The position numbers are program-made. A stretch of DNA of 28,490 nucleotides from Candidatus Micrarchaeota archaeon. Its GTDB lineage: Archaea > Micrarchaeota > Micrarchaeia > Norongarragalinales > UBA8480. The stretch is taken from NCBI GenBank assembly GCA_043805855.1, contig JAZDHP010000059.1, forward strand, positions 1-28,490, in the 5' to 3' direction. Below are positions 9,001 to 15,000 of this stretch, in pieces. The number at the start of each line of letters is the position of its first letter. The first letter of the stretch is position 1.

Positions 9001-12000
9001 TTGAAACGCGAGCATCACTGCGCCACGTTGTTTGTCTGACAACTTTTCCAACACGGGTTCAGCTGCAAATGCAAGGTGCTTTACTTTCTTAAGATAAATT
9101 ATTTCCGCGCCGCCTTTGAAACGCTTTACTGCATTGTAAACTTTTTGAATTGCTTTTTTGTCATTACTAGCAACTTCCCAATACTGACAACCGTCTTTGA
9201 AAAGAATCGGCTGCGTTAGGAAAACTTCGCTAGATAAAACAATCGAATGAAACGCTTTTGACTCTGGAATTCTGAAGAAACATTTATTCTCATCAACCTC
9301 GAGCAACTCGCCGGTGAAATCCTTCGCAACGTTGCGAACTGCTTTTTTCCAATCTGGCCCACTGAACACTGCGATTTTATTGTGATAGTATTTGTTCCCC
9401 TTCTTGAAGAAATTAAGGTAATAGACAACGGCGCTTACGTCGAGCCCTTTGGTGAACTGAGCTAGTATGCTATCGTGCCAAACCTTAAAACGAGCAATCC
9501 ACATTTTGTTTAAAACATTAAACACGGATGGTTTTTAACTTTTCACTACGTTAAAATAAAAAAGAAAACAAGGGTTTTTTATAAAAATGATCCCACTTGC
9601 AGAAGCCGCGTGCCCTAAATGCTTTCAGCACAAGCCATAGGCTTGTGACTGCAATCACAATGCCGCCACATTGTGTTGCGTCACAACGCTCGGCGTTGTG
9701 CCAGAGTCATCGAGCTTTGCTCAATGCCATAACAAAACAGACGTCGCGTACCCGCTGACGTACAACAACTCAACAAAAGTATACAGCTGCACACACACAA
9801 CGTCAGCCACCAGTACACTGAAGACGAAAACGGGTTTCTAAAATCAAGAAACCGCTAGGAAAACACTAAACTGTTTTCCAGCCATCGATTCCAGAAATTA
9901 GTAAGTATTTTTTCAAATCTACTGCTTGTTCGGAGAATTGCCAATAAGTTCTTCGCCCAACTTCTTCCTTAGCTAGGATACCTTCGACTTCCAACTTGTT
10001 GAAAAACGTACTCACTGACAAATACGTTCCACCCGTGCGGTTTTCTTTTAAATCGCGCAAGAGATTTGAAATCGTCGTGCGCTCTAACTTCGCTAGATTT
10101 TCCAACGCTTTTAATCTCAATTTACTTGGATCGTTACGCGCAAGAACAATAAACCAATTTTGTAAATTGCGTTTTAGTCCAGCTGCGCGGCCGAAAATTT
10201 CAGAATAGGCAAGGAACATTACTTTAATTCAACTCCAAAATATTTAGTTTCAAGCGGAATAGTTTCTCCTTTAAACTCAGAGACAAGCAAGTGAACTAAA
10301 CGCATACGGCTTTTCAGGGAAATTTCTCTATCCGAAAGATTGTATATTCCAAAATAAACTTTGCCAAGGTAAGTTGGATCAATCTTACCGCAATTTATCC
10401 CGACTCCGATGCGAATAGCAAAACTCGTTGGTACTAAAACCGCCATTAAACTAGCGGGCATTTTTAAAGATTCAAATGTTGTTCCCAGCACATATTTCCC
10501 CGGCTTTAGTACATAAGGCAGTTTAACGTTACGCGAAGATGGGACTTCTCCTTTGCCATCGAGCTCTGAAACACTTTCCAAGCGCAATTCATAGGAAACA
10601 GGTTTGAAACAAGAAACGTCAAAATCTTTAATCATGTTACTTATAGGTAACGCCGCTTTAAAAAAAGTTACCTTGTTGTTACTAACATGGTAAACAGCTT
10701 GCAATTTAGAGCCGTACTTTTTGTGGAGCAGTTAGTTTACGGAAAAAGTGATAAGGGAATTGGAATTGTAGCACTGTGGACAAGAAAGGAACTAGTTGCA
10801 AATCAAGTTACAGAGGTAAATTATACAGTAATTGGCCAGCTTTACTCGCGCCACCAAGGAATAAATGCTTTGATTATAAACTGCCTAGCGAACAAAACAC
10901 TGCGTTACTTAATCGTAACTGGATTGGACTTAAGTAAGTCAGGCGAAACGCTGGCAAAGTTATTTCAAACTGGCGTCAACGAAAATAGAATGGTCAACGG
11001 CGATAACAATTTTATCCTAGACCCAAATATTCCTCTTGCAGAGCTAGAATCATTTCGACAAAACGTTGAATTAATTGACCTGCGAGGCACGGCTAAGCTA
11101 GAAGAGTTAAACGCAGTAATTGAAAAACTCGAGAAAAAAGCGCCTTATGGCGAAAACCAACGCTTTGAGTTAAGCGCACCGCCAGCACCGGAAGTTTTTC
11201 CTTCTCAATTAACAGGGTTACAAGTAGTTGCGTCGAATATTCCAAAAGCGTGGCCGCAAATTCTTGACAAGATAATGACGTTCGGCGCGTTGAAAAAAAG
11301 CGAGTACGAAGAACCGCAAAAAGAGTTGCTATGCTTTACTTCCATCATCACTGACGACGAACAATTGCCAGAAAACGGAAAAGGCAGCTGGAACCGGTTT
11401 TTCCCATTTACACGAGAAGACGTTGCTGCCTACGTGCCACAAGTTGCAACTGGATTGAAAATCGACGGCGTCGAATACACTTACGGTCAACGACTGCGTA
11501 GTCCAATTGAACAAATCGCGTACATAACTGAAAAAATTAAAACCACCCCGCATAGCCGACGGCACGTAGCGTGCACGTGGAACACTGAACACGATTACAA
11601 TAATCCCAATGCACCTTGCTTGGTTTTGCTTCAGTTCAACGTAACTGACAGCAAACTTCACACAACAGCGTTTATTCGCAGTAATGACATGTACGCCGCG
11701 TGGCCGAAAAACGCGTTTGCACTGCGCGAGTTACAGCGCGCAGTAGCAACGGATACAAAGTTACAAATGGGATTTCTTTCAATTGTATCGCAAAGTGCAC
11801 ACATTTACCAGCACGATTTCGCCAAGGCAAAAGAAGTTATCGCAGCTAGGCCAAAAATTGAATGGCAACCAGATCCAAATGGAAATTTAGTTATAACGAC
11901 GCGCGATAGCGAAATAGTTGTAATTCACTTGGCCCAGGGTTCAAAAGTGTTGGAAGAGTTTCGCGGCAAAACTGCAGTTGAGCTTTACAAACACATTGCG

Positions 12001-15000
12001 TTTCGGAATAAAATTTCGGTAATCTCTCATGCGCTTGATATTGGCTGTGAATTGCAAAAAGCAGAAACCGCGTTAAAGCTAGGAGTACAATACACGCAGG
12101 ACAAACCACTGCCGCTTGAAAACCAATAGATTTAAATAGGTATTTAGTATGAATAAATATGTAAAAAATAGGTTTAAGGAGTTTTAGTTATGTACGAACA
12201 AATGACAATTATGGGAGAACGTGGACAGATAACTATTCCAAAGGCTATTCGCGAAATGGAAGGTTTGAAGCCAGGAAATCAAATTGTAGTAAAAATAGAA
12301 AATAGCAAAATCATAGTTGAAAAACCACTGAACAAAAAAGAAAAGGAAAAATTAATGGCTGAAGGATACAAAAAAATGGCTAAGCTAGATGAAGAAACTG
12401 CTGAGGAATGGAAAAACGCCAGCAAAGAAGCGGATGCGATGCTTGATGATTATTGAACGAGGCGACGTAGTTTTAACCGACTTAGAGCCAGTAAAAGGTT
12501 CAGAGCAAGGTAAAATGAGGCCATGCCTAGTTATACAAAACAATATAGGCAACGCAAATTCGTCAACTACAATTGTAGCTTCAATCACTTCGCACACCGA
12601 AAAACAATATCCTTTTACAGTTTTAGTAAACGCAGGAGAAGGCAACTTGCCAAAAGATAGTTTAGTCCAATGCAACCAAATTAGAACAATTTCAAAAGAA
12701 CACAGAATATTACAAAAGCTAGGCTCCCTTTCGCCAGAAACGATGAAAAAGGTAAACGAAGCACTAAAAACAAGCTTCGCTTTGGACTAAGCTTCAGCAA
12801 TTTTAGCCTTTAATGACGCCAATTGGCACTAACCTACAAACGACGTTGGAAATCTTTGCAGTTTTCACTGTGTTGATCACTTCGTCGATGTCCTTGTACG
12901 CTCCGCCAGCTTCTTCTGCCAAACTCTTCGGTGTTGGCGCTTTGACTTGAATTCCTGAACTTTCCATGTCCTTTTGCAACTGTACGCCGTCGAAATCGCG
13001 AAGTGCCTGGTGGCGCGACATTATACGACCAGCGCCGTGGCAAGTTGAACCAAACGTATTTCTACCGCTCGGAATGCCGACAAGTAAGTAAGAAGCTGTT
13101 GACATGCTGCCTGGAATTATAACTGGTTGGCCGATGTTGCGGTAAGCTGCTGGAATTTCTTTTCTACCTGCCCAAAACGCGCGAGTTGCACCTTTACGGT
13201 GAACGCACACTTTCTTGTTAACCCCGTTAACCTCGTGTTCTTCAATCTTTGCAATATTATGGCACACGTCGTAAACGGTTTTCATTCCCATTGTTTCCCA
13301 ATCTTTATTGAAAACTTGTTGGAATGTCTCGCGAACCCACTGGCCCATGCAATGACGATTTCCAAAGGCGAAGTTCACTGCGCAGTTCATTGCGCCGAAG
13401 TAATCCTGCGCTTCTGGACTTTTAATCGGAGCACAGCACAGTTCATAGTCAGGAAGATTAATTCCATACTTCTTCGCAGCAGGTAGCATAACGCGAATAC
13501 TATCTTCACACACTTGGTGACCAAAACCGCGAGAACCACTGTGAATCATAACTGTAACTTGGCCTTCTTGCGTTATCCCAAACGCTTTTGCTGCTTCGAC
13601 GTCGTAAATCTTGTCAACTTTTTGAATTTCAGAAAAGTGATTTCCACTCCCAAGCGTGCCGAATTGAGGTTTGCCGCGCTTAATTGCCATTGGAGATAAT
13701 TTAGAATACAACGCGCCGTCTTTCTGGCCGTTTTCCTCACAGTGCTCTAAATCTCCCTCAACGCCGATGTCCTTCTCTTCGACGAAGTAACGGCTGCCTT
13801 GAGTAACCGCTTGTTCGAACTCCACATCGTTTAAACGCATTTTACTCTTGCTACCAACCCCACTTGGAATGTTGTCGTACATTTTCAAAATAAGTTCCTT
13901 CAATTTAGGGCGAACTTCTTTTTCAGTAAGGTCGGTACGCAACAAACGTACACCACAATTTGACACAACGATTCCATTTGCGACAAAGTTATGCAAATCA
14001 GCAACGGTAAAATCATATACGATTCCACTATAATCAATTTGTTTTATCTCTGAAATTTCATCAAGCAACGCGCCGAATTGTTCAAATTCTTTTTTGCATT
14101 GCACTGAAAAATCTTTAAACGAAATAAAATCAAGAGTTATTCGTTGCCCTACTTTTTCATAATAACTTCGCTCAATGAATCGAGTATTTGCTTCTGGACA
14201 AACAAGCACTGAACTAACTTCACGAAGAGTTAACCCTTTTGTTTTTAGTTCATTTACTTTAGCTGCAATTTGGGTTCTTTTCTGGGTTAGTTTCTGTTTT
14301 GAAAGTATATACTTAGCTGCTATTTCGCCTAACTGCTGGCGTTTTGTATTATACTCAAATCCAACTACTCGCCATAATTTAAGCAAATTATCTTCATCAG
14401 CAGATATTTCAAGACGCAAACGCATTGTTTTGCCTTGTTTATTTTCATGCTCCATACGCTCTGCAATTTTTGTACATTTCACGCCAAAATCTTCTAAAAG
14501 TGCCATTATGTCTATTAGAAACGTCCTCCCAGCTTCTTTAAATTCAACGTTTTTATTCTGCGACAATATAGGTGAATAAAAGCCAGTTTTTGAATGAGTT
14601 GCCGGACTTGAAAGCTCCGCTCCAAAGAAACCAGCAAGAAATAAACGCTTTAACCATAATGGGGAATCTTTAATCCATTGAGGAACACTAAAAGCTAAGC
14701 TTGTTTTTCGGCCAACTGGCGCGCCGAGAGAAATTAATTCATTAGCAAAAGATTGCGAATAAACGTGCAACTCCGCACATTGACCTACGAAACTCTTTTT
14801 GCCATATTGACTTTCAATAGTGTGATAGCGTTTTCGTTCAACAATATGCGAATGCACACCTAAACTAACTAAATCACGCTGCATTACTTCTAAATCTCCC
14901 TTGGCGCCATAAAAAGCCGTTCTCAACTTTCCTTTTGAATTAGAAATAGAGCCATCTCCAAACAAATAACCTAATACTTTTGCTAAAACGCCTTGCCTTT

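What a model noticed while it worked through the whole genome (the two positions that open the first line are those of the whole stretch)
10687..12129. Thymidylate synthase fused between an MtrA-like and a DUF4346 domain in a genome without DHFR
g01061 joins an MtrA-fold domain, an intact ThyA and a DUF4346 domain in one chain; this three-part enzyme is widespread in non-methanogenic DPANN. With no DHFR in the genome, the flanking domains are candidates for recycling the oxidised folate, in the place DHFR takes in DHFR-TS fusions.
Evidence so far: Pfam: MtrA 35-153, ThyA 202-390, DUF4346 396-472. All but a few of the best 120 homologs carry the three domains; named ones are Woese-, Pace-, Aenigm-, Nano- and Micrarchaeota. 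Catalytic PC, RS-D, N, H-Y invariant in 31 sequences, with invariant residues also in both flanks; N-domain matches MtrA 5laa at E 8e-18. DHFR_1 not found. Model pLDDT 89.
(Added by a program. Inside this text positions count along the whole contig: contig position 1 is position 1 of the stretch shown here. "Call 12" and the like, gene names such as g00115 and contig names such as C1 are that model's own, and its searches are not shown. The text may have been shortened before it was handed on; [...] marks where a part breaks off. The agent that wrote the report below was given it as the finding of a first reader that could run no searches.)

Follow-up and report, generated by a model that had tools for sequence, protein, structure and literature searches.

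The report
Thymidylate synthase with B12-type methyl module
This gene encodes a widespread thymine-making enzyme whose owners often lack the folate-cycle enzymes such enzymes normally need, and its two extra domains resemble a vitamin B12 methyl carrier, hinting at a third way of making the T of DNA.

Summary
The three-domain ORF (MtrA-like, archaeal-type ThyA, DUF4346; 10687-12129) is real, intact and dUMP-specific by sequence. It occurs in DPANN, CPR bacteria, cyanobacteria and their viruses. It behaves as a true dTMP synthase: of 44 cyanobacterial genomes, 21 have it, 23 have ThyX, none both, none neither; 35 of 86 loci have dTTP-pathway neighbours. DHFR travels only with canonical ThyA. 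The new result: SHMT, the usual methylene-folate source, is found in 46 of 46 ThyX relatives but missing in 18 of 25 small genomes with the fusion and neither ThyX nor DHFR. Three 90-95% complete ones also lack FolD, Fhs, GcvT and thymidine kinase, but keep SAM synthetase. Folate recycling alone cannot explain that. MtrA+DUF4346 also exists as a separate protein that keeps the cobalt ligands His84/Glu54, beside a stand-alone TS (9 loci) or in ArsR operons. The fused form keeps the tail pocket but lost His84 (0 of 83). Best reading (0.45): methyl-level, cobamide-mediated methylation of dUMP, probably from SAM. No biochemistry was possible; the invariant pterin-binding Asp argues for a folate role.

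The parts
10687..12129 (+). Three-domain thymidylate synthase gene (480 aa): MtrA-like, archaeal-type ThyA, DUF4346
   Evidence: start Met shared with a same-genus homologue
10708..11154 (+). MtrA-like domain (aa 8-156). Keeps the cobamide nucleotide-tail pocket residues (S54=Thr53, G58=Gly57, N65=Asn64); gains W31 and Y53; lacks Glu54
   Evidence: (5laa Z 18.2); residue roles from PMC4915002
10921..10947 (+). Loop aa 79-87, where the cobalt-ligating His84 of MtrA is deleted
   Evidence: alignment to 5laa and 9qtq; His in 0 of 83 fused, 9 of 9 split, 71 of 71 other two-domain proteins
11203..11856 (+). Thymidylate synthase domain (aa 173-390), methanogen/archaeal type; matches only profile positions 47-227 of 266, so the ThyA C-terminal tail is replaced by DUF4346
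   Evidence: (TIGR03283 143.7 bits, below its 174.55 cut-off)
11617..11619 (+). Catalytic Cys311 (PC motif); with R331, S332, D334, N342 (dUMP-type Asn), H372, Y374
11872..12102 (+). DUF4346 domain (aa 396-472): three-stranded sheet and two helices, no clear structural relative
   Evidence: (best Z 6.2)
12028..12030 (+). His448 of DUF4346, invariant in fused, split, arsenic-operon, stand-alone and viral forms; candidate cofactor ligand or catalytic residue (inference)
   Evidence: invariant in 103 of 103 rows
10219..10635 (-). Divergent dCTP deaminase/dUTPase-family gene (likely ATG at 10635; the mechanical ORF runs to 10704), feeds dUMP supply
   Evidence: same head-to-head pair in relatives L004, L005, L006

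Best explanation
It is a working dTMP synthase (about 0.93) that does not run on the classical SHMT/ThyA/DHFR folate cycle. The TS domain activates dUMP in the usual way: Cys311 adds to C6 and C5 becomes a nucleophile (inferred from invariant residues). The MtrA-like and DUF4346 domains form one module that carries a cobamide and delivers a carbon at the methyl level. Cob(I)amide is methylated, most likely by SAM, and methylcob(III)amide passes the methyl to C5, so no hydride is taken from folate and neither DHFR nor SHMT is needed. In most fused forms, including this one, the cofactor would be bound without His84, as in TsrM, or with His448 as a substitute ligand. Shown here: architecture, active-site residues, replacement of ThyX, absence of DHFR and SHMT genes, intact cobalamin motif in split forms. 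Inferred: cobamide binding by His-less forms, SAM as donor, the role of DUF4346.
For: (1) Cyanobacteria: 21 of 44 fusion, 23 of 44 ThyX, 0 both, 0 neither. 14 fusion cyanobacteria have no ThyX, no thymidine kinase and no DHFR over cut-off. (2) 35 of 86 loci have dCTP/dCMP deaminase, dUTPase or TMK within 5 kb; fusions to TMK (P0118) and of the module to dCTP deaminase (P0168). (3) SHMT in 46 of 46 ThyX relatives, 18 of them on a different contig from thyX, but absent in G004, G013, G021 (91, 90, 95% complete), where the fusion is the only TS found. Absent in 18 of 25 small genomes with fusion and no ThyX or strong DHFR, against 2 of 11 with another TS. (4) G004, G013, G021 lack TK, FolD, GcvT, Pterin_bind and Fhs but have SAM synthetase. 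(5) Split operons, 9 of 80 metagenome loci: MtrA+DUF4346 with Thr53-Glu54-Asn55, Gly57, Asn64 and His84 in 9 of 9, beside a stand-alone TS; one three-domain protein, P0178, keeps His and Glu. (6) The same module with a four-Cys N-domain (63 of 71) lies beside ArsR (42 of 80 loci), ArsC (5) and ArsM-like genes (3), a methyl-acceptor setting like HgcA (PMC11588087 abstract). (7) DUF6580 membrane proteins sit beside B12-dependent RNR, CobA or DUF4430 in 6 of 12 loci read; in G078, G087, G088, which lack NrdJ, they sit at the fusion locus, and one leads split operon L276. (8) Precedent: His-off methylcobalamin methylates a carbon nucleophile in TsrM (PMC8992657 passages).
Against: His84 is absent in 83 of 83 fused proteins from genome loci and Glu54 is not kept, so cobamide binding by this very protein is unshown. 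Asp334, whose counterpart binds the pterin ring in ThyA (recalled), is invariant in all 81 cellular and 73 viral fusions. The window's own genome and its genus keep SHMT, as do 7 of 25 fusion-only small genomes and all 14 cyanobacteria. NrdJ is not enriched in fusion genomes (25 of 43 against 29 of 37 others), DUF6580 is found in only 11 of 43, and G004 and G013 have neither. The one complete small genome, G095, has thymidine kinase and no SAM synthetase. No SAM-binding fold was recognised in DUF4346. DUF4346 also occurs on DHPS-like proteins and alone in cyanobacteria, where a methyl-carrier role is not obvious. Most small genomes are incomplete bins, thyX and glyA share a contig in 28 of 46 relatives, and kin are not independent.
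Confidence: 0.45

Rival explanations
1. One reading: a classical methylene-THF ThyA whose flanks re-reduce the dihydropterin, or reduce the methylene intermediate, using a cobamide or a flavin in the MtrA pocket. DUF4346 would be a dihydropterin-reductase part wherever it occurs.
For: DHFR never accompanies the fusion alone. Asp334 is invariant. DUF4346 also caps DHPS-like proteins, which make a dihydropterin, like the known DHPS-pteroate reductase fusion (PMC1971073 passages). It stands alone in 44 of 101 cyanobacterial-phylum genomes, a group where a DHF reductase is reported missing. The best structural hit of the TS domain is a flavin-using TS-fold enzyme, 9iqc, Z 23.7.
Against: It leaves no methylene source in genomes lacking SHMT, FolD, GcvT and Fhs. 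The module also sits in ArsR operons with no pterin gene among the recurring neighbours. No reductase-like fold or NAD(P)H motif was found.
Confidence: 0.2
2. The enzyme uses a methylene-pterin taken from the host or made by an unrecognised enzyme, used once or recycled elsewhere. The flanks only bind the cofactor tail or regulate the enzyme.
For: DPANN and CPR are host-dependent (established knowledge). Asp334 is invariant. The TS domain is closest to the methanogen type, which is presumed to use methanopterin or folate (PMC9012536 passages).
Against: Equally host-dependent ThyX relatives keep SHMT in 46 of 46, so import does not usually replace it. Free-living cyanobacteria use the fusion as sole TS without DHFR. 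Split partners keep a full cobalamin motif.
Confidence: 0.15
3. The His-less fused forms have dropped the cobamide and bind SAM, or another methyl donor, directly in the remodelled pocket (new W31, Y53), methylating C5 as TrmA does on tRNA.
For: W31 and Y53 are fixed in 81 of 83 fused proteins exactly where His84/Glu54 are lost. SAM synthetase is present in G000, G004, G013, G021. G004 and G013 show no B12 marker. TrmA moves a SAM methyl directly to uracil C5 (PMC5954106 passage).
Against: The residues that bind the cobamide tail are kept (PMC4915002). DUF6580 sits beside His-less fusions in NrdJ-less genomes. No SAM-binding fold was found.
Confidence: 0.14
4. It makes something other than dTMP, such as 5-hydroxymethyl- or 5-hydroxy-dUMP or dCMP, or is dispensable where salvage exists.
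For: Top structural hits are a dCMP hydroxylase (9iqc, Z 23.7) and MilA (Z 21.3), ahead of ThyA (Z 20.1). This genome and G002 also have a tandem ThyX. G095 has TK.
Against: Asn342 is the dUMP-type residue in all rows. Mutual exclusion with ThyX is complete in 44 cyanobacteria. TK is found in only 2 of 50 fusion genomes. TMK and deaminases are neighbours or fused.
Confidence: 0.06

Closest known systems
ThyA, methanogen/archaeal type (TIGR03283; Pfam PF00303)
   Same: Fold, catalytic Cys, phosphate-binding Arg, Ser, Asp, dUMP-type Asn, His-x-Tyr; best NCBIfam match (143.7 bits).
   Different: Below the family cut-off (174.55); carries two extra domains; occurs in non-methanogens; ThyA C-terminal tail not matched; found without DHFR and often without SHMT.
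DHFR-TS bifunctional enzymes of protists and plants
   Same: A TS domain fused to partner domains in one chain.
   Different: The partners are an MtrA fold and DUF4346, not DHFR; the genomes often lack the methylene-folate source that DHFR-TS needs.
ThyX (flavin-dependent thymidylate synthase)
   Same: Same pathway slot, mutually exclusive in 44 of 44 cyanobacteria; no DHFR needed.
   Different: Unrelated fold; ThyX genomes keep SHMT (46 of 46 relatives), fusion-only genomes mostly do not.
MtrA and cytoplasmic MtrA homologues (PDB 5laa)
   Same: Fold (Z 18.2) and tail-pocket residues Thr53, Gly57, Asn64; split partners also keep Glu54 and His84.
   Different: This fused form lacks His84 and Glu54, has no membrane anchor, and is joined to TS and DUF4346.
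MtrA+DUF4346 two-domain proteins (NF002128, PRK00964.1-6)
   Same: The same two domains; 45 of 58 representative hits have them without TS.
   Different: Here TS is inserted between them; most two-domain forms found have a four-Cys N-domain and sit beside ArsR. No function found in the papers searched.
TsrM and HgcAB (SAM to cobalamin to substrate methyltransferases)
   Same: The chemistry proposed here: SAM methylates the corrinoid, which passes the methyl on; TsrM does so His-off to a carbon nucleophile.
   Different: No sequence or fold relation was tested or found; analogy only.

Membership tests
ThyA (folate-dependent thymidylate synthase) | TS fold with catalytic Cys, RS-D, Asn and H-x-Y | tested here: met
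ThyA (folate-dependent thymidylate synthase) | dUMP specificity (Asn, not Asp, at the L. casei 229 position) | tested here: met
   N342 aligned to N229 and invariant
ThyA (folate-dependent thymidylate synthase) | Genomic coupling to DHFR | tested here: not met
   DHFR only beside a second canonical ThyA
ThyA (folate-dependent thymidylate synthase) | A source of methylene-THF (SHMT, FolD, GcvT) in the genome | tested here: inconclusive
   Present in the own genome and all 14 cyanobacteria; absent in 18 of 25 fusion-only small genomes and in G004, G013, G021
ThyA (folate-dependent thymidylate synthase) | Methylene-THF as carbon donor and reductant | not testable with these tools
   Needs an enzyme assay; Asp334 is kept, the C-terminal tail is not matched
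Methanogen-type TS (TIGR03283) | Score above curated cut-off 174.55 | tested here: not met
   143.7 bits for this protein; homologue P0061 reaches 184.2
MtrA cobamide carrier | MtrA fold | tested here: met
   Pfam above cut-off; 5laa Z 18.2, rmsd 2.3
MtrA cobamide carrier | Cobalt ligand His84 with Glu54 | tested here: not met
   Deleted here and in 83 of 83 fused proteins; kept in 9 of 9 split partners
MtrA cobamide carrier | Nucleotide-tail pocket (Thr53, Gly57, Asn64) | tested here: met
   S54, G58, N65 here; Ser/Thr in 74, Gly in 83, Asn in 75 of 83 fused proteins
MtrA cobamide carrier | Bound corrinoid | not testable with these tools
   No cobalamin ligand option and no ligand scoring available
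DHFR or other known dihydrofolate reductase domain | DHFR fold or profile match in either flank | tested here: inconclusive
   No Pfam DHFR match; none listed among structural hits of either model, which does not exclude an unknown reductase
dCMP hydroxylase or hydroxymethylase (9iqc, MilA, T4 dCH) | Asp in place of the dUMP-type Asn | tested here: not met
   N342 invariant; the Asp rule is recalled

The most novel reading that the evidence does not exclude
A third chemistry for thymidylate synthesis: a ThyA-fold enzyme coupled to a cobamide methyl carrier (MtrA+DUF4346) that methylates dUMP at the methyl level without the folate cycle. It would be used by many DPANN and CPR lineages, about half of the photosynthetic cyanobacteria sampled, and their viruses. 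The same module would serve as a mobile corrinoid methyl shuttle, also in arsenic-type operons, and might supply the poorly understood methanogen-type TS.
Probability: 0.45. Interest if true: 0.93.

Novelty: new variant of a known kind. Interest (0 to 1): 0.82.

Why it matters
Two de novo routes to dTMP are described, ThyA and ThyX, and both start from methylene-folate (PMC5954106, PMC9012536 passages). This family fills the same slot, excludes ThyX in all 44 cyanobacteria tested, and persists in genomes with no detectable folate one-carbon enzymes. Whichever rival is right, something unknown is there: a B12- or SAM-based thymidylate synthase, a new dihydropterin reductase, or a new one-carbon source. 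It is directly testable, because culturable cyanobacteria carry it as their only TS and E. coli thyA, folA and glyA mutants give a simple selection. It would also give a function to MtrA homologues of non-methanogens, which metagenome studies could misread as methanogenesis genes, and to DUF4346.

Tried and rejected
1. cobO beside cyanobacterial fusions (10 loci) looked like B12 evidence. Rejected: the same cobO-dcd-adk-rph cluster flanks thyX in 3 of 10 control loci. 2. The one apparent cyanobacterium with both systems, G207, has a four-Cys MtrA+DUF4346 protein, not a TS fusion. 3. Complex prediction of the N-domain with the C-domain gave no answer (score 0.01, mark 0.32); it is not evidence either way. 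4. Mean-field covariation (effective depth 170-285) gave plausible within-domain pairs and a few inter-domain ones (H56-V421 rank 9, N65-S419 rank 13, A254-D451 rank 13); too shallow and confounded by subfamilies to use. 5. DUF4346 alone: no Foldseek hit at E<=0.001 and best Z 6.2 to ribosomal chains; no atlas hit. 6. No Rfam family, so no cobalamin riboswitch, in 20 sources including the window. 7. NrdJ and DUF6580 counts over 80 genomes show no enrichment of B12 markers in fusion genomes. 8. No record covering 80% of the protein among 50,697 annotated phage or 72,556 plasmid records. 9. A search for short DUF4346 proteins by shared words scored only 6 candidates. 10. The TS-domain tree is the quick version with 19 of 45 inner branches open; no order of events is claimed. 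11. A dCTP deaminase cluster of 21 loci was inflated by intein cross-links; the direct count is 14. 12. Paper searches found nothing on DUF4346, PterinBD, DUF6580 or this fusion. 13. Earlier scan notes were not available.

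
Full report
1. Observation. The + strand ORF 10687-12129 encodes 480 aa with Pfam MtrA 35-153, thymidylate synthase 202-390 and PterinBD-DUF4346 396-472, all above cut-off. NCBIfam ranks the methanogen-type TS first (143.7 bits, cut-off 174.55). It also matches both flanks to a 390-aa MtrA-named family (NF002128) and the C-flank to the end of DHPS-like proteins (TIGR00284). 115 of the best 120 homologues have all three precomputed families. The catalytic set C311, R331, S332, D334, N342, H372, Y374 aligns with L. casei and E. faecalis ThyA and is invariant in 120 rows. The model is confident (pLDDT 93.6, pTM 0.83). The TS part matches 9iqc (Z 23.7), MilA (21.3) and ThyA (20.1), the N-part MtrA 5laa (18.2). 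DUF4346 folded alone has no clear relative. A dCTP deaminase-family gene lies head to head with it. The nearest named homologues are Micrarchaeota.

2. Range. 80 viral contig loci were kept, of which 73 long proteins were aligned; 41 loci lie beside a ribonucleotide reductase alpha gene. A permuted order, MtrA-like then DUF4346 then TS then a degenerate TS, occurs in G004 and four representatives.

3. It makes dTMP. 35 of 86 loci (many on short contigs, the window's included, one pair duplicated) have dCTP deaminase (14), dCMP deaminase (14), TMK (11) or dUTPase (9) nearby. Of 101 genomes drawn from the cyanobacterial phylum, 44 have DUF4346; only these 44 were searched for ThyX. 21 have the three-domain TS (20 checked, G100 through L070) and no ThyX; 23 have ThyX and no fusion. 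Fourteen fusion cyanobacteria have no ThyX, no TK and no DHFR over cut-off. TK was found in 2 of 50 fusion genomes. A published COG table gives 23 ThyX and 8 ThyA among 31 cyanobacteria (PMC5954106, passages); that some of the 8 are this family is my inference.

4. It does not need DHFR. In 61 relatives, the 7 genomes with canonical ThyA all have DHFR within about 1 kb. Of 8 with the fusion only G007 has DHFR, beside its canonical ThyA. In 50 fusion genomes (50 of the 79 loci; one also belongs to the 61) there are 5 strong DHFR hits, each beside a canonical ThyA, 2 weak ones over cut-off in other genomes and 2 below. Caveat: cyanobacteria such as Prochlorococcus lack recognisable DHFR anyway (PMC1971073, passages).

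5. It often has no methylene-folate source. SHMT is in 54 of 61 relatives and in 46 of 46 with ThyX; 28 of these share a contig with thyX and 18 do not. The 7 without SHMT are G004, G013 and G021 (91, 90, 95% complete; fusion the only TS found), two with no TS found, and two 70-85% bins with ThyA and DHFR. Among 36 small genomes of the 50, SHMT is absent in 18 of 25 with neither ThyX nor strong DHFR, and in 2 of 11 with another TS (Fisher p 0.004, overstated because kin are related). Canonical ThyA without DHFR was not searched in that set, and completeness was not given. Loss of a thyX-glyA contig could mimic this, but only 4 of 53 non-fusion relatives lack any TS, against 18 of 36 fusion genomes lacking both ThyX and SHMT. 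G004, G013, G021 also lack TK and FolD. With G065 and G095 they lack GcvT, Pterin_bind and Fhs. G000, G004, G013, G021 have bacterial-type SAM synthetase; G095 has neither type. G095 is a complete genome without DHFR, ThyX or SHMT, but it has TK, so it could salvage. The window's own genome keeps SHMT and a tandem ThyX that scores just under the ThyX cut-off (85.7 against 87.9), so this genome by itself is uninformative.

6. The flanks are one module. A search with the N-part of the G004 protein gave 58 representatives, 45 with MtrA+DUF4346 and no TS. A metagenome scan with their alignment kept 80 loci. In 9 the module lies beside a stand-alone archaeal-type TS, in 8 beside dCTP deaminase, and in some beside TMK. 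In most others it has a four-Cys N-domain (63 of 71) and lies by ArsR (42 loci), DsbD-type membrane proteins (13), ArsC (5) or ArsM/ArsN2 (3); this scan used a motif that favours forms with Glu54. In MtrA, His84 binds cobalt with Glu54, while Lys52, Thr53, Gly57 and Asn64 hold the nucleotide tail (PMC4915002, parts 1-2 of 5 and passages). His84 is present in 9 of 9 split partners and 71 of 71 others (Glu54 in 70), but in 0 of 83 fused proteins, which keep Ser/Thr (74), Gly (83) and Asn (75) and gain Trp31 and Tyr53 (81 each). One three-domain representative, P0178, keeps His and Glu, and some two-domain ones have Phe for His. His448 of DUF4346 is invariant in 103 of 103 rows across all forms.

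7. B12 context. DUF6580 proteins lie beside B12-dependent RNR in L313, L314, L315 and in the own genome (L318), and beside CobA or DUF4430 in L311, L312. That suggests a B12 uptake component; this is inference, no paper was found, and the B12 link of DUF4430 is recalled. In three genomes without NrdJ (G078, G087, G088) the gene is at the fusion locus instead, and it leads split operon L276. Against this, DUF6580 was found in only 11 of 43 fusion genomes, NrdJ in 25 of 43 against 29 of 37 others, and G004 and G013 have neither. The cobO neighbour in cyanobacteria is not specific.

8. Mechanism. The simplest account of a TS that needs neither DHFR nor SHMT, joined to a corrinoid-type carrier, is transfer at the methyl level: dUMP plus a methyl donor gives dTMP with no folate oxidation. 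TsrM shows that His-off methylcobalamin, loaded from SAM, can methylate a carbon nucleophile (PMC8992657, passages). HgcAB shows SAM to corrinoid to metal (PMC11588087, abstract and start of introduction). TrmA shows direct SAM methylation of uracil C5 (PMC5954106, passage). I give 0.45 to the cobamide version and 0.14 to direct SAM use by His-less forms. The invariant Asp334 (pterin-binding role recalled) and DUF4346 on DHPS-like proteins keep the folate-based rivals alive: built-in reductase 0.20, imported or unknown methylene-pterin 0.15, other product 0.06. All chemistry is inferred; nothing here shows cofactor binding.

9. Novelty. Databases already call these proteins thymidylate synthase or DUF4346 protein. 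Ten searches of the open library found no description of the fusion, the module or the SHMT pattern. Most subscription papers are not held, no supplements were read, and the Pfam name PterinBD implies a curator's note I could not see. [quoted passage not shown] Verdict: a real, widespread new variant of TS that fails the DHFR-coupling test for ThyA and the His84 test for MtrA, with a nearly even chance of a new chemistry. Interest 0.82.

Noticed in passing
window:9590-9860: Non-coding stretch with a run of about six short hairpins; folds better than 200 of 200 shuffles (z -3.3); no Rfam match at E<=1. Possibly a structured RNA or mobile-element remnant.
   Followed up: partly
window:835-6303: Three repeated pairs of a TrmB-type regulator and an NMT1/THI5-like substrate-binding protein on opposite strands.
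   Followed up: no
window:6300-8793: Two tandem genes (352 and 477 aa) that match only the PEP-utiliser mobile domain at their C-termini.
   Followed up: no
window:12190-12790: MazE/AbrB-like antitoxin and PemK/MazF-like toxin pair right after the TS gene, also in same-genus loci.
   Followed up: no
window:12803-15685: RtcB with a LAGLIDADG-type intein (960 aa); the same-genus homologue in L020 is 489 aa and appears intein-free.
   Followed up: no
window:16038-17377 and 27240-28214: Asp/Glu racemase-family gene, a cytidine/dCMP deaminase-family gene and an SLT transglycosylase-domain gene in an archaeal contig.
   Followed up: no
L217-L296 (e.g. L222, L266, L291, L265) and L307:1435-2598: Four-Cys + MtrA + DUF4346 proteins with intact cobalamin motif in ArsR operons, often followed by a small exported protein of no known family (29 loci) or a DsbD-type membrane protein; a candidate corrinoid-dependent metal(loid) methylation system.
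   Followed up: partly
L107-L136: Stand-alone DUF4346 (about 110-130 aa) in 44 of 101 cyanobacterial-phylum genomes whatever their TS type, often between a TPM-domain gene and a FemAB-like gene.
   Followed up: partly
L308-L319: DUF6580 is repeatedly beside B12-dependent RNR, CobA or DUF4430, suggesting a B12 uptake component.
   Followed up: partly
L010:289-2664; P0122, P0140, P0167, P0169: About 800-aa permuted family: MtrA-like, DUF4346, TS and a degenerate second TS domain, possibly a single-chain pseudo-dimer.
   Followed up: partly
L001:1399-2964 (own genome, contig C67): Tandem two-domain ThyX of 521 aa, a form common in the relatives and often next to glyA.
   Followed up: partly
L024:374-1018 and L031:5409-8423: A second, stand-alone methanogen-type TS above cut-off 4 kb from a fusion gene, and a 1005-aa TMK-ThyX fusion directly after another fusion gene.
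   Followed up: no
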